Virus record (IMG/VR): IMGVR_UViG_3300045988_029530
Coordinates: 1-43,428 of that record
DNA: 43,428 nucleotides
Origin: a virus
Reading direction: 5' to 3' (one strand)
Part shown: one piece after another, positions 8,225-12,649 of the stretch
How the letters are laid out: the number at the start of each line of letters is the position of its first letter
Position numbering within the stretch: position 1 is the first letter of the stretch
Notes under the pieces: generated by a model
The model's database searches: none
What the model was told of the DNA's origin: nothing
Seen by the model: the letters and a program-made list of their open reading frames with translations, nothing else
Made by a program: the position numbers and the translations under genes

Positions 8225-8422
8225 CTCATTTTCCTCTCTCCACGCTTCTTCTAGCGCTTTGCAGGCTTCCGCAAGCTCTCCAAACAGCCTCCTGCATTCT
8301 TTCAGGTTTTCCGTCGCTCTTGTCCAGTCTCTCTCCGACCGGACAGCCAGTATGATTGCCCATACCGCAGTCGCGCCGCCGATACACGCGAGAATCATGC
8401 TCACGATCTGCGTGACCGTCAT
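8153..8422 (-). CDS. Hypothetical N-terminally membrane-anchored protein
   Basis: AGGAGG 7 nt before the ATG. TM segment IVSMILACIGGATAVWAIILAV, then a helical region and an acidic tail. Confidence 0.6.
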   Translation of the reverse strand: MTVTQIVSMILACIGGATAVWAIILAVRSERDWTRATENLKECRRLFGELAEACKALEEAWREENELAASATDDDGDNGNQEGNDGNDL

Positions 8423-8473
8423 TTCTTCCCCTCCTATCGCGTTTCGCTTTCTTCGTGGCTCCTACATGTGATT

Positions 8474-8689
8474 TTAATTCACGCATCCTTGCAAAAAAAT
8501 ATCGTTAGTTTCCGCGACAGACAGTCCAAGCATGTTCTGCAGTTTCACAATTTCAGATACCTTAAATTCACGCTTATTGTTGATCTTGTATTGCAGTGAA
8601 CTTTCGCTAATTTCGAGTATTTCAGCGACTTTCTTCTTCGTAAGGCCACGCCGCATAATAGCGACGTTTAACTCCACGGTGTTAATCAT
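8474..8689 (-). CDS. Cro-like XRE-family HTH protein (first gene of the leftward early operon)
   Basis: AGGAGG SD before ATG 8689. HTH segment GLTKKKVAEILEISESSLQYKINNKREF. Divergent from the repressor gene across a 160-bp AT-rich switch region. Confidence 0.8.
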   Translation of the reverse strand: MINTVELNVAIMRRGLTKKKVAEILEISESSLQYKINNKREFKVSEIVKLQNMLGLSVAETNDIFLQGCVN

Positions 8690-8707
8690 TGTCTTATCCT
8701 CCTTTCT

Positions 8708-8724
8708 CGTGAATATCATTCACG
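8708..8724. promoter_or_regulatory. Operator-like palindrome CGTGAAT-ATC-ATTCACG between the leftward -10 box and the Cro-like SD
   Basis: 7-bp perfect arms read directly from the sequence. Confidence 0.6.
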
Positions 8725-8729
8725 TATTT

Positions 8730-8757
8730 ATATTATCACATAAATTCCCTTTGTCAA
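8730..8757 (-). promoter_or_regulatory. Leftward early promoter TTGACA-N16-TAATAT with a TGn extension (PR-like)
   Basis: Minus-strand read: TTGACAaagggaatttatgTGaTAATAT. Confidence 0.7.
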
Positions 8758-8785
8758 TAGTTTTTTTATCTTTTTCAAAAAATTG

Positions 8786-8814
8786 TTGATTTTCAATCAC
8801 TTTTGTGATATTCT
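8786..8814 (+). promoter_or_regulatory. Rightward repressor promoter TTGATT-N17-TATTCT (TGn extended) with the embedded palindrome ATCAC-TTTT-GTGAT (8796..8809)
   Basis: Hexamers and spacing read directly. The palindrome lies in the spacer. Confidence 0.5.
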
Positions 8815-8849
8815 CCATGCATACAATAATTCTAAAAGGAGAACACTTT

Positions 8850-9332
8850 ATGACTTGGTTTCAACGCATTTGCTATGCACGCAAACAACGCAATCTCACG
8901 CAGGATGAACTCGCGCGTAAATTAGGATACAAAGACCGTTCAACTATTGCCAAAATCGAAACAGGAAAAGCCGATCTTCCACAAAAGCAGATTTATAAAT
9001 TTGCGGAAGCTCTCGACGTTCCAGTTGAATACTTATATGGCTTTGAGGAAAGGCCATGGGAAGATGATATCGCAGAGGATTATGAAAACGCTCGTAATAT
9101 GAAAGAAAAAATAGATATTGTTCGTGACAACGGCATTGATCCGAGGTACGCATATAAATACTATTTAGAAAAGCACGATTATGACTTGATTCCTCACGAG
9201 AAAGAAAGCTCACAGCCAGCCATCATAGAAAGTGATGTTGACCATGAGCTTCTCTCCCTGTTTTCACGTCTGACTAAAGACCAACAGCAGCAGGTGCTTG
9301 ACTATCTTCGTTTCCTTCTGTCAAAGTCCTGA
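8850..9332 (+). CDS. CI-like XRE-family repressor (no S24 peptidase domain)
   Basis: AAAGGAG 7 nt before ATG 8850. HTH segment RNLTQDELARKLGYKDRSTIAKIETGKADLP. Helical C-terminal domain. Located in a low-GC island. Confidence 0.8.
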   Translation: MTWFQRICYARKQRNLTQDELARKLGYKDRSTIAKIETGKADLPQKQIYKFAEALDVPVEYLYGFEERPWEDDIAEDYENARNMKEKIDIVRDNGIDPRYAYKYYLEKHDYDLIPHEKESSQPAIIESDVDHELLSLFSRLTKDQQQQVLDYLRFLLSKS

Positions 9333-9458
9333 GCAGTTCCAGCAGCTTTAGTTTTTCCTCTAAACCAATTTCCCCCAGTATCTTTTGAAATTTTCTTTCG
9401 TTCTCTGTCATCTTTCCGCTCCTTCCGACATTTTTGTAGTGTTAACTAAAATATTGCT

Positions 9459-9487
9459 TGACATTTTTCTTCCCACGCGGTAATATA
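9459..9487 (+). promoter_or_regulatory. Consensus SigA promoter TTGACA-N17-TAATAT (P1 of a tandem pair)
   Basis: TTGACA at 9459..9464, TAATAT at 9482..9487. Confidence 0.7.
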
Positions 9488-9515
9488 AAAGTATCAAATA
9501 TGGTATTTTTACTAT

Positions 9516-9544
9516 TGACTTTTCCCTCGCCATGGGTTATACTG
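9516..9544 (+). promoter_or_regulatory. Consensus SigA promoter TTGACT-N17-TATACT (P2, 57 bp downstream of P1)
   Basis: TTGACT at 9516..9521, TATACT at 9539..9544. Confidence 0.7.
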
Positions 9545-9587
9545 AGCCTGCAATGAGATATCTTCTCTTCTCGTTGCCTTTATGCAG

Positions 9588-9646
9588 CCCTTGGCAGTAC
9601 GCCGCCCACGAATCCGGGTTTGGCCGATCCCAAGGGCTTTTTTATA
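9588..9646 (+). terminator. Intrinsic-terminator-like hairpin with U tract in the leader, directly before the NYN gene SD
   Basis: GCCCTTGG (9588..9595) pairs with CCAAGGGC (9631..9638) and is followed by TTTTTTAT. AAGGAG at 9659..9664 and ATG 9672 follow immediately. Confidence 0.6.
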
Positions 9647-9671
9647 CCCATAGATAGAAGGGAGCTTTCGT

Positions 9672-10343
9672 ATGTCCGTTACTGCCATTCTCGTGGACGG
9701 TGCATTCTATCGTGCAAGGTTTGCCAAGTCCGGTGAGCATTCCCCGCAGGAAGCTGCCGATGCCTTGGTGCGTTATTGCTCCCGTCACTTGCACGAGCGC
9801 TCCCTAAGCCACACGCTATACCGTATTTTTTATTATGATTGCCCTCCCAGCAGAAAGAAAATATTTCATCCGCTGCAAAACAGAACCTACGATCTTTCCA
9901 AAACACCGCAATATCAGTGGATGTGTGACTTCTTGGATGCCCTCCGCCAGAAGCGGAAGGTCGCGCTTCGGCTTGGCTATCTGGATGAAGTGAACGCGGC
10001 CTATACGCTCCGCCCCGATGTAGCTCGTGATCTGGTCTTGAAAAAAAGATCGCTTGATTCTCTCACGGATTCTGATTTTATCCCGTCGTTCAAGCAAAAA
10101 GGCGTAGATATGCGCATCGGTATGGACATTGCTTCCCTTGCATACAAGCGTCAGGTTTCTCAGATCGTTTTAATTGCCGGGGATGCGGACTTCGTTCCCG
10201 CTTCCAAACTTGCACGCCGCGAAGGTATCGATTTTGTTCTCGATCCTCTCGGTCATCCAATCAAAAACGATCTCTTTGAGCATATCGACGGAAAGCGTTC
10301 CTGCGGCGATCCTTATCTGGAATCCTCCAGAAAAGGCAGATAG
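9672..10343 (+). CDS. NYN-domain (LabA/DUF88-like, PIN-related) putative ribonuclease
   Basis: AILVDGAFY (N-terminal Asp), QKGVDMRIGMDIASLAY, IVLIAGDADFVPASKLARREGIDFV. This is the three-block acidic signature of NYN/LabA-like domains. Confidence 0.8.
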   Translation: MSVTAILVDGAFYRARFAKSGEHSPQEAADALVRYCSRHLHERSLSHTLYRIFYYDCPPSRKKIFHPLQNRTYDLSKTPQYQWMCDFLDALRQKRKVALRLGYLDEVNAAYTLRPDVARDLVLKKRSLDSLTDSDFIPSFKQKGVDMRIGMDIASLAYKRQVSQIVLIAGDADFVPASKLARREGIDFVLDPLGHPIKNDLFEHIDGKRSCGDPYLESSRKGR

Positions 10344-10344
10344 C

Positions 10345-10524
10345 TCAGTTCACAAGTCTCGGTTTTTCCTCCTTCGTCCCCGTTCCCACGTCGGCCACGC
10401 AGGAGAACAGCAGCGGTGCACCCTCGATATAGTCCACCGAGAAGCTGTGCAGCCGTTTTAATTCCGCCCCGTCTATAATCACGCTGACCTTTCCGTTTTC
10501 GGAAATAATGTGGATAGATTGCAT
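10345..10524 (-). CDS. Small hypothetical protein (59 aa), convergent on the NYN gene with a 1-nt gap; below the ORF-track cutoff
   Basis: Hand translation MQSIHIISENGKVSVIIDGAELKRLHSFSVDYIEGAPLLFSCVADVGTGTKEEKPRLVN. GGAGGG 7 nt before ATG 10524. Confidence 0.45.
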   Translation of the reverse strand: MQSIHIISENGKVSVIIDGAELKRLHSFSVDYIEGAPLLFSCVADVGTGTKEEKPRLVN

Positions 10525-10757: not shown

Positions 10758-11342
10758 ATGACCGCATACCAGAAGCTGTACCCCAAATTTGAATCCTACC
10801 CCGAGGCCGTCCGTCAGGCAAAGCGTCTCAAGGGCCTCACCATCGACGCGCTGGTCGAATCGGCCGGCGTTTCCTATTCCTCCGTGTCCCGCCTCTGCGA
10901 CGGCACGCAGCTCGATCCCAAGCTCTATAATTCCGTCGCTCTCTGCAAAGTCCTCGGTCTTTCCATGGACGAGATTTTCGGTCTATCCGCGTCCGAGGCC
11001 AGCGCCGAGGAATTGCAGGCGAAGCTCCACGCCGCCGAACTGGGAAACGCCCACCTTGCCGAGGAAAACAAGCGTCTGCACGAGGTCAACCGCCTCCGCG
11101 CCGAGCAGCTTGCCGCCCGCGCCCCCGTTATCTATATTCTTCTCTTTGCCTGCGCGCTCCAGTCCTGCGCCTTGATCTTTTATCTGTTCGTCGATGCGCA
11201 GATCAAGGATGCCGGCCTCATCCGCTTCGGCGATGTCGGCCTTGTCGCGTGGCTTCTGATCTTCCTTGTCCTCTCCGCAACTTCCGCCTGCGTCTGGGCG
11301 ACCATGCGCTTCGCCCGTAAATTCAGTAAAAAGGAGCGCTGA
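10758..11342 (+). CDS. Membrane-anchored XRE-family HTH protein (HTH + coiled coil + 2 TM)
   Basis: AAGGAG SD. HTH segment LTIDALVESAGVSYSSVSRLCDG. TM segments VIYILLFACALQSCALIFYLFV and LVAWLLIFLVLSATSACVWA. The stop lies 2 nt before the integrase ATG. Confidence 0.8.
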   Translation: MTAYQKLYPKFESYPEAVRQAKRLKGLTIDALVESAGVSYSSVSRLCDGTQLDPKLYNSVALCKVLGLSMDEIFGLSASEASAEELQAKLHAAELGNAHLAEENKRLHEVNRLRAEQLAARAPVIYILLFACALQSCALIFYLFVDAQIKDAGLIRFGDVGLVAWLLIFLVLSATSACVWATMRFARKFSKKER

Positions 11343-11344
11343 CC

Positions 11345-12397
11345 ATGTACATTCCCGAGCCGAAAGAAACCCCCTCCGGCTGGCGCATCCAGCTCCGCAT
11401 CAACGGCCAGTCCATCCCCGTTCTGGCCGACACGCCCAAGGAGTGCAAGCGTCAGGCCGCCCTTATCAAGGCGCAGGCGCAAGCCGCCGGAAAGCCCGTC
11501 AAAAAATGCGACCTCACCCTCTCTCAGGCCATTGATGCCTATATCGCCGCACTTCCCCCCGATATTTCTCCCGCAACGCTCCGCGCCTATCGCAACATTC
11601 AGCGGAAACGCTTCCCCGATCTCATGTCCATGCGTGTCGCTTCCATCACCCCCGCATCCTTGCAGCGTGCGCTAAATTCGGAGCTTTCCGCCTTTTCCCG
11701 CAAGACCGTCAAAAACGCCTTTGTCCTTGTCAAGACCGTGCTGGAGACAAACGGCGTAGAAGTTCCGAAGAAACTCGCCATCGACCGCAAGGAGCGCAAG
11801 AAAAAAGATCCCATCTGGCTCGAGCCGGACGAAATCAAGAAGTTTGTCGCCGCTGCGAAAGATGACCCTCTCTGCGTCCCCATGCTGCTTGCCCTTATGT
11901 CCATGCGTATCTCCGAGATCGATGCGCTCCGCTGGGAGAATATCCCCCCTCGCCCCGAATTTATCCGCACCTCCGGAGTTCGCATCATGGACGAGCATCA
12001 TCACTGGGTCACACTCGCCGAGCATAAAACAATCGAATCCGACCGCAGCGTTCCCTTGCTCATTCCCGAGCTGCGCGCCGCCATCGAGCGGGACCGCAAG
12101 CCCTCCGGCAAGTTGCTGGACATTCATCAAAACACCCTGCGAAGCGCCGTCGAGCGCACCTGTGCGCGTGCCGGTGTCAAGCGCGTCACCGTCCACCAGC
12201 TCCGTCACAGCTTCGCCTCCCTCTCCGCCCACCTCCGCATCCCCGCTGAAATTTCCATGGAGATCGGCGGCTGGAGCAATGACAAAACCATGAACGAGAT
12301 TTACACCCACATTGCCCGCTCCGACATTGAGCGCTATAAAAACGAAATGTGGAAATTCTACAATGATACTTCCTCCCAGCAGTCCGAGGATGCATGA
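11345..12397 (+). CDS. int: Tyrosine recombinase / phage integrase
   Basis: Catalytic-domain pattern: MRISEIDALRWENI (Arg), VHQLRHSFAS (HxxR), GGWSNDKTMNEIYTHI (Tyr). Confidence 0.92.
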   Translation: MYIPEPKETPSGWRIQLRINGQSIPVLADTPKECKRQAALIKAQAQAAGKPVKKCDLTLSQAIDAYIAALPPDISPATLRAYRNIQRKRFPDLMSMRVASITPASLQRALNSELSAFSRKTVKNAFVLVKTVLETNGVEVPKKLAIDRKERKKKDPIWLEPDEIKKFVAAAKDDPLCVPMLLALMSMRISEIDALRWENIPPRPEFIRTSGVRIMDEHHHWVTLAEHKTIESDRSVPLLIPELRAAIERDRKPSGKLLDIHQNTLRSAVERTCARAGVKRVTVHQLRHSFASLSAHLRIPAEISMEIGGWSNDKTMNEIYTHIARSDIERYKNEMWKFYNDTSSQQSEDA

Positions 12398-12649
12398 GCA
12401 TTCCCATAAGCATTTACTGTTCCCGAATCCGATATTTTTCTTCCCCTTGCCTACTATTTTATTCCCATATTTGAAACATCTGAGCACCGTCTTTCCCTTG
12501 CAAATAAAGGAAAGCCCTTGCAAACGTACTGTTTGCAAGGGCCGATAAAATCCATTCGTAAGACAGTTCGAAACACTCTTTTGCGCTTGTAAAACTCCAG
12601 TATTATCAATGTTTTTCTGGCGATACAAGCAATTTCATAAGCATTTACT
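12398..12649. other. Candidate attP region: AT-richer spacer with direct repeats and CCCTTGCAAA motifs
   Basis: CATAAGCATTTACT occurs at 12405..12418 and 12636..12649. CCCTTGCAAA occurs directly at 12495..12504 and 12515..12524 and inverted at 12532..12541. The region lies between the integrase and the convergent moron cassette. Confidence 0.45.
12500..12542 (-). terminator. Intrinsic terminator ending the minus-strand transcription series (12-bp stem plus U tract)
   Basis: GCCCTTGCAAAC-gtact-GTTTGCAAGGGC (12514..12542). On the minus strand it is followed by UUUCCUUUAUUU. Confidence 0.7.

What the first reader, a model, noticed from the sequence alone, without database searches (positions are those of the whole stretch)
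9459..10343. NYN-domain RNase-like gene in the lysogeny cassette behind two consensus promoters and a leader terminator (candidate prophage defence or toxin module)
The lysogeny cassette holds a 223-aa protein with the three acidic blocks of NYN/LabA-like PIN-related nucleases: ILVDGAF, KGVDMRIGMD and LIAGDADFVP. It lies between the CI-like repressor and the integrase-proximal genes. Its upstream region is unusual. Two near-consensus SigA promoters sit 57 bp apart: TTGACA-17-TAATAT at 9459..9487 and TTGACT-17-TATACT at 9516..9544. They are followed by a roughly 90-150-nt leader that ends in an intrinsic-terminator-like hairpin plus U tract (9588..9646), directly against the gene's SD (9659..9664). 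Most transcripts would therefore stop as a small RNA unless read-through is induced. A 34-codon leader ORF (9554..9658) runs through the hairpin and stops at the SD, which would allow translation-coupled attenuation. The layout of strong promoter, short RNA, terminator and nuclease gene is reminiscent of type III toxin-antitoxin loci. I see no tandem RNA repeats, however. Standalone NYN genes are not among the well-known defence systems I can recall.
Basis: partly seen in the sequence, partly recalled or inferred. Interest (0 to 1): 0.62.

Follow-up and report, generated by a model that had tools for sequence, protein, structure and literature searches.

The report
Conserved structured RNA gating phage NYN nuclease
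This temperate phage carries a self-contained cassette (strong promoter, small folded RNA ending in its own terminator, then a predicted RNA-cutting NYN enzyme) that recurs almost unchanged in prophages of many bacterial phyla. Its RNA half is the unexplained Staphylococcus aureus small RNA Teg147, and no paper found in the searched library tests what the pair does.

Summary
There are two 10/12 promoter-like sites (9458-9486, 9515-9543), a folded leader, a hairpin plus U-run (9586-9643), an SD (9657-9664) and a 223-aa NYN gene (9672-10343).

The hairpin is more than a terminator. It is a covarying RNA motif with an outer stem, a sarcin-ricin-like AGUA/GA internal loop and an inner hairpin.
- It lies directly upstream of this NYN subfamily in all but one of about 158 loci with enough upstream DNA.
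- In 151 Lachnospiraceae genomes, all 6 with the gene have the RNA just upstream, and one further genome has the RNA alone.
- It is a broad relative of Rfam RF03535 (TEG147), although the Rfam model does not detect the window copy.
- The S. aureus Teg147 locus keeps the RNA but only about 13 mutated codons of NYN.
- No protein partner is conserved. Neighbours are mostly integrases or repressors.
- The leader ORF is not conserved, and no antiterminator was found.

Best reading (about 0.5): the RNA is made in excess, limits read-through, and probably binds the nuclease, like type III toxin-antitoxin pairs or AbiF/RCd22. This would serve exclusion or addiction.

This scan had already noted the same pair at least ten times on other DNA.

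The parts
9458..9486 (+). Upstream sigma-70-type promoter-like site, TTGACA-17-TAATAT. It is additional to the cassette promoter.
   Evidence: 10/12 match. Sequence read. I did not examine whether relatives have a second promoter at this distance.
9515..9543 (+). Cassette promoter, TTGACT-17-TATACT. The inferred start is near 9550.
   Evidence: 10/12 match. Its -10 box ends 42 nt before P1. In relatives with a site of at least 10/12 (77 of 100, against 1 of 100 inside the gene) the median distance is 34 nt, IQR 31-45.
9550..9577 (+). 5'-terminal hairpin P0 of the predicted RNA (GCAAUGAGA...UCUCGUUGC).
   Evidence: Fold. A hairpin at this place with MFE below -5 kcal/mol occurs in 73% of relatives with a good promoter. 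The sequence is not conserved.
9586..9638 (+). Conserved structured RNA motif (Teg147 class).
- P1: 9586-9594 with 9630-9638.
- Internal loop: CAGUAC (9595-9600) opposite CGAUC (9625-9629).
- P2: 9601-9603 with 9622-9624.
- UU bulge: 9620-9621.
- P2b: 9604-9607 with 9616-9619.
- Loop: 9608-9615.
   Evidence: Model R1 scores 62.9 bits, E 1e-13, over 9580-9648. Covariation on 57 non-redundant sequences: 87.5% of cells paired, and 191 double-change cells against 56.5 +/- 6.5 in shuffles. Slid controls pair 26-60%.
9638..9643 (+). Run of six U directly after P1, the tail of an intrinsic-terminator-like structure. U9638 also closes P1.
   Evidence: Sequence. In 100 non-redundant relatives, 80% have at least 5 T in the 8 nt after P1.
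9657..9664 (+). Shine-Dalgarno sequence GAAGGGAG of the NYN gene.
   Evidence: Sequence. In relatives P1 ends a median of 24 nt before the start codon, IQR 21-31.
9672..10343 (+). NYN/LabA-like predicted ribonuclease gene, 223 aa, pI 9.3.
   Evidence: - Pfam PF01936 E 2.3e-8.
- phrog_5783 E 5e-78, full length.
- Invariant D9, D56, D146, D152, D171, D173, D187, D191 and D206 in 61 sequences of 50-68% identity.
- AF2 model with pLDDT 92.9.
- BFVD matches to LabA-like and NYN proteins, probability 1.0, TM 0.42-0.55.

Best explanation
The stretch 9515-10343 is one mobile two-part cassette carried in the lysogeny module of a complete temperate phage genome. A further promoter-like site lies upstream at 9458-9486.

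What the sequence and comparisons show:
- A near-consensus promoter would start transcription near 9550.
- The predicted RNA is about 95 nt: a 5' hairpin, a short linker, then a conserved hairpin. That hairpin has a GC-rich outer stem, a sarcin-ricin-like AGUA/GA internal loop, an inner stem-loop and a U-run.
- The RNA and this NYN subfamily are inherited together with near one-to-one fidelity.
- No protein partner is conserved.

What I infer:
- Most transcripts end at the U-run. The cell therefore holds a large excess of the small RNA and little NYN mRNA.
- In read-through mRNA the same hairpin sits about 20 nt in front of the SD.
- The conserved loop is a recognition site for the NYN protein. 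The RNA would then restrain the nuclease twice: in cis, by termination or occlusion of the ribosome site, and in trans, by binding the protein. This is what RCd22 does for AbiF in C. difficile, and what ToxI does for ToxN.
- When the balance tips, for example when an infecting phage shuts off host transcription or the element is lost, the free NYN enzyme cuts RNA and stops growth. That would give the prophage exclusion of other phages or addiction.
For: RNA structure and its coupling to the gene:
- Base-pair covariation is strong in all three helices, and the loop nucleotides are conserved.
- The RNA lies directly upstream, on the same strand, in 79 of 80 genome loci. Among the viral loci only L026 lacks a hit, and it has just 62 nt of upstream DNA; L071 gives a cut-off match. 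One locus with ample upstream DNA, L140, lacks the RNA.
- The loci come from Oscillospiraceae, Lachnospiraceae, Negativicutes, Peptoniphilaceae, Erysipelotrichaceae, Treponema, Fibrobacter, Staphylococcus and Burkholderia phage phiE202.
- In 151 Lachnospiraceae species genomes the RNA is in 7 and the gene in 6. The six coincide, with the RNA 16-50 nt upstream.
- Five whole genomes each hold one strong copy.

Signs that the RNA is made in excess:
- A strong promoter occurs in 77% of relatives, against 1% in a control taken inside the gene.
- A 5' hairpin occurs in 73%.
- A U-run follows P1 in 80%.
- This combination gives a high RNA-to-protein ratio, which a gene that merely needs low expression would not require.

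Evidence from S. aureus:
- Teg147 is reported as a discrete 60-nt 'bona fide' sRNA of S. aureus HG003 (PMC5826253).
- The loci matching it score 84-90 bits with RF03535. They show the same Sau-63/Teg147 spacing as NCTC 8325: 2039 nt against 2043 nt.
- These loci keep the promoter and the RNA but only about 13 mutated codons of NYN. A related low-GC locus, L181, has the intact gene.
- RNA-only relics exist: four S. aureus-like loci, L176, and a second copy in L070. A nuclease without the RNA was seen once (L140).

Other support:
- JAR3D scores the RF03535 internal loop as a sarcin-ricin motif, a common protein-binding module (PMC13085918).
- The catalytic-type Asp residues are invariant.
- Immediate downstream neighbours are 26 tyrosine integrases and 17 serine recombinases out of 103. 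Upstream neighbours are varied, with HTH or S24 repressors the commonest.
- In E. coli phage ev099 the homologue sits directly after cI, between cI and the N-like gene. From my own knowledge of lambda's map, that is where rexA-rexB lie.
- Precedent: the prophage-encoded AbiF toxin of C. difficile is neutralised in cis and in trans by an upstream motif RNA (PMC12373285).
Against: - No experiment bears on toxicity, RNA-protein binding, termination efficiency or phage exclusion.
- The RNA is single-copy, not tandemly repeated, and the protein does not have a ToxN-like fold. It therefore fails two defining features of type III systems.
- A 5' hairpin suggests a stable RNA, whereas the classic antitoxin model needs a labile one.
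- One homologue (L140) lacks the RNA, so the nuclease is not always lethal without it.
- About 29% of copies depart from the strict GUA/GA loop.
- I found no protein column that tracks the RNA loop variants.
- PADLOC gives only a 17-bit partial hit to a NYN model.
- Foldseek and hmmsearch find no close solved structure.
Confidence: 0.5

Rival explanations
1. The RNA is a purely cis-acting leader, either a constitutive attenuator or a translational operator. NYN binds its own leader to hold its level low, as ribosomal-protein leaders do. The nuclease is not a toxin but a phage RNA-processing factor needed in the lysogen. The short RNA seen in S. aureus is only the by-product of termination.
For: - The RNA is almost always directly upstream on the same strand, 12-80 nt from the start codon.
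- A U-run follows P1 in 80% of relatives.
- Rfam files TEG147 as 'Cis-reg'.
- One homologue lives without the RNA.
Against: - A near-consensus promoter followed by a terminator is a wasteful way to get low expression.
- Orphan RNA copies keep the promoter and the fold after the gene is lost.
- The loop nucleotides are conserved beyond what a terminator needs.
Confidence: 0.25
2. The RNA is a cofactor, guide or substrate that activates or directs the nuclease, forming a ribonucleoprotein effector, rather than an inhibitor.
For: - The RNA and protein co-occur about one to one.
- The internal loop looks like a protein-binding module.
- The protein is basic, pI 9.3.
Against: - The RNA has no variable, guide-like segment. 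Its variation is compensatory within stems.
- RNA-only relics are commoner than protein-only ones, which fits an inhibitor better.
Confidence: 0.12
3. The hairpin is a small-molecule or signal-sensing riboswitch or attenuator that opens read-through on a cue. This includes the reader's leader-peptide coupling.
For: - A terminator-like stem lies directly before the gene.
- A leader ORF is present in the window.
Against: - There is no conserved competing fold. P1 stays intact in 72 of 77 terminated leaders and in 68 of 77 read-through folds.
- The leader ORF occurs in only 21% of relatives, in varying frames.
- The element is tied to a single protein family, which is typical of protein partners rather than metabolites.
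Confidence: 0.06
4. The hairpin is an ordinary terminator or insulator between the repressor operon and a moron gene, with no specific role.
For: - It has a GC-rich stem and a U-run.
- In E. coli phage ev099 a plain long hairpin with a U-run follows cI at the same place.
Against: - The inner architecture and loop sequence are conserved across phyla, with covariation.
- The RNA has its own promoter in most copies.
- Genome-wide, the model finds only the NYN-linked copy at a high score.
Confidence: 0.03

Closest known systems
Rfam RF03535 TEG147 (S. aureus small RNA Teg147 / sRNA85 / srn_0960)
   Same: The architecture is the same: a 9-bp outer stem, an AGUA/GAA internal loop, an inner stem with a 3' bulge, a 7-nt loop and a U-run. 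Relatives of the window copy score 36-53 bits and Staphylococcus-type copies 81-90 bits. JAR3D calls the loop a sarcin-ricin motif.
   Different: The Rfam model is built from Staphylococcus and does not detect the window copy even at E <= 10. The papers that mention Teg147 treat it as an orphan sRNA of a genomic island and do not link it to a NYN gene. Here it precedes an intact nuclease and carries an extra 5' hairpin.
Type III toxin-antitoxin systems (ToxIN, CptIN, TenpIN)
   Same: Both have a promoter, then a structured non-coding RNA, then a terminator, then an endoribonuclease-type gene. Both are carried on mobile elements. The expected RNA excess is the same.
   Different: The RNA here is a single copy, not tandem repeats. 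The protein is NYN/LabA-like, not ToxN/AbiQ-like. Neutralisation and RNA processing are untested.
AbiF(Cd)/RCd22 of a C. difficile prophage (PMC12373285)
   Same: Both are prophage-encoded. Both have a conserved RNA motif directly upstream of a toxic RNase-like protein. RCd22 acts in cis and in trans by binding the protein, which is the model I propose here.
   Different: The protein family differs (Abi_2/HEPN-like against NYN). The RNA motif is unrelated. RCd22 carries two motif copies.
Lambda rexA-rexB exclusion operon (position only)
   Same: In E. coli phage ev099 the homologue sits directly after cI, before the N-like gene. From my own knowledge of lambda's map, that is the rex slot, which is expressed in lysogens. 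In the window the gene likewise follows the cI-like gene.
   Different: There is no sequence or mechanistic relation. This cassette has its own promoter and RNA.
LabA-like NYN proteins (Pfam PF01936)
   Same: The profile match and the invariant acidic residues agree. Fold matches go to viral LabA-like and NYN models.
   Different: This is a divergent subfamily (phrog_5783) with no close solved structure. I am not aware of a dedicated leader RNA reported for other NYN families; I did not test this.

Membership tests
Rfam RF03535 TEG147 | Covariance-model score at or above the gathering score of 56.1 bits | tested here: not met
   There is no hit on the window at E <= 10. Relatives score 52.6, 44.3 and 36.2 bits. 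Staphylococcus-type loci score 80.9-89.8 bits.
Rfam RF03535 TEG147 | Same secondary-structure architecture and internal-loop motif | tested here: met
   The TEG147 consensus and structure line match the structure supported by covariation in A1. The window has CAGUAC opposite CGAUC.
Rfam RF03535 TEG147 | Accumulates as a discrete short transcript | not testable with these tools
   This is reported only for S. aureus HG003.
Type III toxin-antitoxin | Antitoxin RNA made of tandem repeats | tested here: not met
   TRF finds no repeats in 9300-10400. Each locus has a single motif copy.
Type III toxin-antitoxin | Terminator between the RNA and the toxin gene | tested here: met
   A GC-rich stem and a run of six U lie at 9586-9643. 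At least 5 T in 8 nt follow P1 in 80% of relatives. Function was not measured.
Type III toxin-antitoxin | Toxin of the ToxN/AbiQ/CptN/TenpN endoribonuclease families | tested here: not met
   Pfam assigns NYN PF01936 only. PADLOC gives no type III hit.
Type III toxin-antitoxin | The protein is toxic and the RNA neutralises it by direct binding | not testable with these tools
   This needs expression and binding assays.
NYN / LabA-like nucleases (PF01936) | Profile match above the curated cut-off | tested here: met
   35.1 bits against 24.2, E 2.3e-8, residues 88-186.
NYN / LabA-like nucleases (PF01936) | Conserved acidic active-site residues | tested here: met
   D9, D146, D171 and D173, among others, are invariant in 61 sequences.
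NYN / LabA-like nucleases (PF01936) | NYN/PIN-like fold | tested here: inconclusive
   The AF2 model has pLDDT 92.9. BFVD LabA-like and NYN hits have probability 1.0 but TM of only 0.42-0.55. PDB Foldseek gives TM below 0.4.
Riboswitch / leader-peptide attenuator | Conserved alternative (antiterminator) fold or conserved leader ORF | tested here: not met
   P1 is retained in 72 of 77 MFE folds. A leader ORF occurs in 21 of 100 relatives, in different frames.
Known anti-phage defence systems (PADLOC-DB 2.0) | Significant full-length match to a system protein | tested here: not met
   The only hit is PDLC01154 'NYN', 17.2 bits, over residues 139-186.

The most novel reading that the evidence does not exclude
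This would be a new class of RNA-protein toxin-antitoxin or abortive-infection module. A single-copy RNA carrying a sarcin-ricin loop is made in excess from a strong promoter and stoichiometrically inhibits a NYN ribonuclease, possibly by mimicking the enzyme's natural sarcin-ricin-type target in ribosomal RNA. The module spreads through temperate phages of Gram-positive, Gram-negative and spirochaete hosts. Orphan copies such as S. aureus Teg147 would act as stand-alone antidotes.
Probability: 0.3. Interest if true: 0.8.

Novelty: new variant of a known kind. Interest (0 to 1): 0.65.

Why it matters
If the RNA does neutralise the nuclease, this is a widespread and unstudied RNA-controlled toxin or defence module. 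It would have a toxin fold (NYN) and an RNA architecture (a single sarcin-ricin hairpin) not seen in the described type III systems.

Its reach is wide. The word search returned its maximum of 8000 related protein clusters. It occurs in gut Firmicutes prophages and in Burkholderia phage phiE202. More distant homologues, 38.6% identical, occur in Escherichia lambdoid phages and in Stx2a-converting phage records; in ev099, the one E. coli locus I read, the leader is a different hairpin.

It also gives a concrete origin, and a testable function, to Teg147. That S. aureus sRNA has been catalogued since at least 2011 (PMC3053349) without a known role.

The cassette is compact, about 830 bp, so it can be tested directly in laboratory strains.

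Tried and rejected
- Rfam on the window found nothing, at gathering threshold or at E <= 10. The link to TEG147 appeared only through relatives.
- Leader-peptide attenuation was rejected.
- An antiterminator or riboswitch was rejected for lack of a competing fold.
- A conserved protein partner, including the convergent 59-aa ORF at 10345-10524, was rejected. Neighbours are heterogeneous.
- A profile search of the PDB found nothing. PDB Foldseek gave only generic alpha/beta matches.
- A search for protein columns that track RNA loop variants found none.
- The gene next to Teg147 could not be read from the supplement of Liu et al.. I solved this instead with a pattern scan of the viral contigs.
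- Literature searches for a NYN link to phage defence or type III systems found none. The Minerva preprint does not mention NYN.
- The second R1 hit, at 12503-12549 (-), is a plain terminator hairpin.
Full report
**1. What is in the window**

The window is a complete virus record of 43,428 bp with direct terminal repeats. The lysogeny region reads, from left to right:
- a cro-like gene (8474-8719, minus strand);
- a cI-like HTH gene (8805-9332, plus strand);
- the region in question;
- a 59-aa ORF on the minus strand (10345-10524);
- an XRE-type gene with transmembrane segments (10758-11342);
- a tyrosine integrase (11345-12397).

The NYN ORF is 9672-10343, 223 aa. Pfam NYN scores E 2.3e-8, above its cut-off. 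PHROG 5783, of unknown function, scores E 5e-78 over the full length. PADLOC gives only a 17-bit partial match.

Upstream, the scan finds TTGACA-17-TAATAT at 9458-9486 and TTGACT-17-TATACT at 9515-9543, both 10/12.

From about 9550 the RNA folds into a 5' hairpin (9550-9577) and a large hairpin (9586-9638). The large hairpin runs into six U (9638-9643). The SD is at 9657-9664. There are no tandem repeats.

**2. The hairpin is a conserved structured RNA**

I fetched 160 loci that encode relatives of the protein, 53-72% identical. Eighty came from IMG/VR and eighty from species-representative genomes. Read by eye, nearly all show the same hairpin with obvious compensatory changes.

A MAFFT alignment of 57 non-redundant copies (A1) gives a consensus structure with three parts. 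These are an outer stem P1 of 8-9 bp, an internal loop, and an inner stem of 2-3 plus 4 bp with a 2-nt bulge on the 3' side. The structure ends in a loop of 7-9 nt.

On that unfitted alignment:
- 87.5% of cells pair;
- all 16 pairs show changes on both sides;
- 191 cells carry double changes, against 56.5 +/- 6.5 in shuffles;
- sliding the partner columns drops pairing to 26-60%.

The internal loop is (A/U)GUA on the 5' side and (C)GA(A) on the 3' side. In the model-fitted alignment of 78 distinct sequences, G is present in 82%, U in 87% and A in 96% on the 5' side. On the 3' side G is present in 78% and A in 94%. This is the sarcin-ricin or bulged-G pattern. An independent paper scores this loop of RF03535 as a sarcin-ricin motif with 100% acceptance (PMC13085918). 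About 29% of copies depart from the strict GUA/GA form.

**3. Coupling to the gene**

A covariance model built from A1 (R1) hits the window at 9580-9648 with 62.9 bits.
- It hits 79 of 80 genome loci directly upstream, on the same strand.
- Among the viral loci only L026 gives no hit, and it has just 62 nt of upstream DNA; L071 gives a cut-off match.
- One locus, L140, has the gene without the RNA.
- Five whole genomes each contain a single strong copy.

As an unbiased test I searched 151 Lachnospiraceae species genomes twice. The RNA model finds 7 genomes and the protein finds 6. The six coincide, with the RNA 16-50 nt upstream of the protein match. The seventh, L176, is an RNA with no NYN gene in the 300 nt before the contig ends.

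The pair also occurs in Dorea phage DO134P1, Streptococcus phage Javan85 and Burkholderia phage phiE202. In E. coli lambdoid phage ev099 a 38.6%-identical homologue lies directly after cI, before the N-like gene. It sits behind a different long hairpin with a U-run, which R1 barely scores at 12.6 bits. From my own knowledge of lambda's map, that is where rexA-rexB lie.

**4. Cassette anatomy across relatives (100 non-redundant copies)**

- A promoter of at least 10/12 lies within 130 nt upstream in 77%, against 1% for same-sized windows inside the gene. Its -10 box ends a median of 34 nt before P1. The window's second promoter ends 42 nt before P1.
- The interval holds a 5' hairpin in 73%. The structure is conserved but the sequence is not.
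- At least 5 T occur in the 8 nt after P1 in 80%.
- P1 ends a median of 24 nt before the start codon.
- The predicted terminated RNA has a median length of 85 nt.
- P1 survives in the MFE fold of 72 of 77 leaders and of 68 of 77 read-through mRNAs. No conserved antiterminator is apparent.
- An ATG-started ORF crosses the hairpin in only 21%, in varying frames.

**5. Neighbours**

The immediate downstream gene is a tyrosine integrase in 26 and a serine recombinase in 17 of 103 loci. Upstream genes are varied, with HTH or S24 repressors the commonest.

Forty-three of 80 viral contigs end within 3 kb downstream of the gene, against 9 within 3 kb upstream.

The only constant partner of the nuclease is the RNA. 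The unit behaves as a moron near the integrase or att end.

**6. Link to Teg147**

Rfam finds nothing in the window. On relatives, however, RF03535 TEG147 matches the motif at 36-53 bits, below its 56.1-bit cut-off. Its consensus has the same architecture.

Teg147 is listed as a 'bona fide' 60-nt sRNA of S. aureus HG003 (CP000253 386294-386353, plus strand). Its unusually high GC content suggested horizontal origin (PMC5826253). It is also said to be expressed from a genomic island (PMC3053349).

A pattern taken from the TEG147 consensus found five low-GC loci in the viral contigs.
- Four are S. aureus-like: L179, the one I compared, is 95.6% identical to records with S. aureus as host, and the other three share its flanking sequence. 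They score 84-90 bits with RF03535.
- One of them, L182, shows the same Sau-63 to Teg147 spacing as NCTC 8325: 2039 nt against 2043 nt.
- In L179, homology to the intact cassette runs from the -10 box through the RNA into the first 13 or so codons of NYN. Those codons are mutated and carry an in-frame stop, and homology then ends. L178, L180 and L182 carry the same remnant.
- The fifth locus, L181, has the same RNA (80.9 bits) and an intact 223-aa NYN gene, 51% identical to the window's.

The S. aureus sRNA is therefore the surviving RNA half of this cassette. This gives indirect experimental support that such an RNA is transcribed and ends at its U-run. It also shows that RNA-only relics persist. 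A further example is a second, oppositely oriented copy in L070.

**7. The protein**

In 61 sequences of 50-68% identity to the window's protein, the invariant residues include D9, D56, D146, D152, D171, D173, D187, D191 and D206. The AF2 model is confident, with pLDDT 92.9.

The PDB holds no sequence relative and no convincing fold match. BFVD returns LabA-like and NYN proteins at probability 1.0 with TM 0.42-0.55. The protein is basic, pI 9.3. I conclude that it is a divergent but probably active NYN nuclease.

**8. Mechanism**

Shown:
- a conserved RNA structure;
- near one-to-one coupling with the gene;
- the order promoter, RNA, U-run, SD, gene;
- a location in lysogeny modules;
- orphan RNAs.

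Inferred:
- termination gives an excess of RNA over mRNA;
- the loop is the binding site of NYN;
- the RNA restrains the nuclease in cis and in trans;
- release of the nuclease stops growth, giving exclusion or addiction.

The closest working precedent is AbiF/RCd22 of a C. difficile prophage (PMC12373285), followed by the type III systems. Membership in type III fails on repeats and on toxin family.

The rival readings are set out with their odds in the Rival explanations section. They are a purely cis-acting leader, a cofactor RNA, a riboswitch and a plain terminator.

**9. Novelty and earlier notes**

Literature searches found no paper that links NYN genes to this RNA, to phage defence or to type III systems.

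This scan's own notebook shows that the same RNA-NYN pair was already noted at least ten times on other genomes, with the same closest-known family. I reached TEG147 independently before reading those notes.

The first is the paired RNA-first and protein-first survey. The second is the demonstration that the S. aureus Teg147 locus is a truncated cassette. The third and fourth are the tests of the leader ORF and of an antiterminator.

**10. Limits**

E-values from R1 are rough. Promoter and terminator calls are consensus matches only.

Noticed in passing
window 9274-9411 (-): A 45-aa minus-strand ORF (MTENERKFQKILGEIG...) has a strong SD (GGAAGGAG on the minus strand). It overlaps the 3' end of the cI-like gene by about 59 nt. 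It has no Pfam or PHROG hit.
   Followed up: no
window 9592-9611 and 9680-9700: The 5' half of the RNA motif is complementary to codons 3-10 of the NYN gene: TGGCAGTA pairs with TACTGCCA, and CCGCCCACGA pairs with TCGTGGACGG. The two arms are in an order that cannot form one continuous helix. The Staphylococcus-type locus L181 does not share this.
   Followed up: partly
window 9493-9690: In a transcript started at the upstream promoter, the stretch around 9522-9543 is predicted to pair with 9644-9664, which includes the SD, enclosing the whole motif (z is only -1.9). If real, long transcripts would be translationally masked. I did not check this in relatives.
   Followed up: no
L162 2924-2993 (Escherichia phage ev099); Stx2a-converting phage records: E. 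coli lambdoid phages carry a 38.6%-identical NYN gene. In ev099 it lies right after cI, before the N-like gene, behind a different long hairpin plus U7 that R1 scores at only 12.6 bits. The Stx2a records are unannotated at the match.
   Followed up: partly
L070 4995-5061 (-); L176 1501-1567 (+): These are orphan copies of the RNA motif with no NYN gene downstream. L070 also has the normal gene-linked copy.
   Followed up: partly
L140 about 1580-1800: This is the one NYN homologue, in a high-GC Oscillospiraceae MAG, with no detectable copy of the RNA motif upstream.
   Followed up: partly
L163 2977-3099 (Burkholderia phage phiE202): The annotated 'gp8 hypothetical protein' on the opposite strand overlaps the end of the RNA motif (2899-2970) and the start of the NYN gene, so it is probably spurious. 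A type II toxin-antitoxin pair and the integrase flank the cassette.
   Followed up: no
window 8400-9600: The immunity region has 33-42% GC, against 55-62% in the flanks. The NYN gene is intermediate at about 50%. This is consistent with separately acquired modules.
   Followed up: no
window 12503-12549 (-): A plain terminator hairpin (GCCCTTGC...GCAAGGGC plus a U-rich tail) lies downstream of the integrase. R1 picked it up at 22.5 bits, for its stem and tail only.
   Followed up: no
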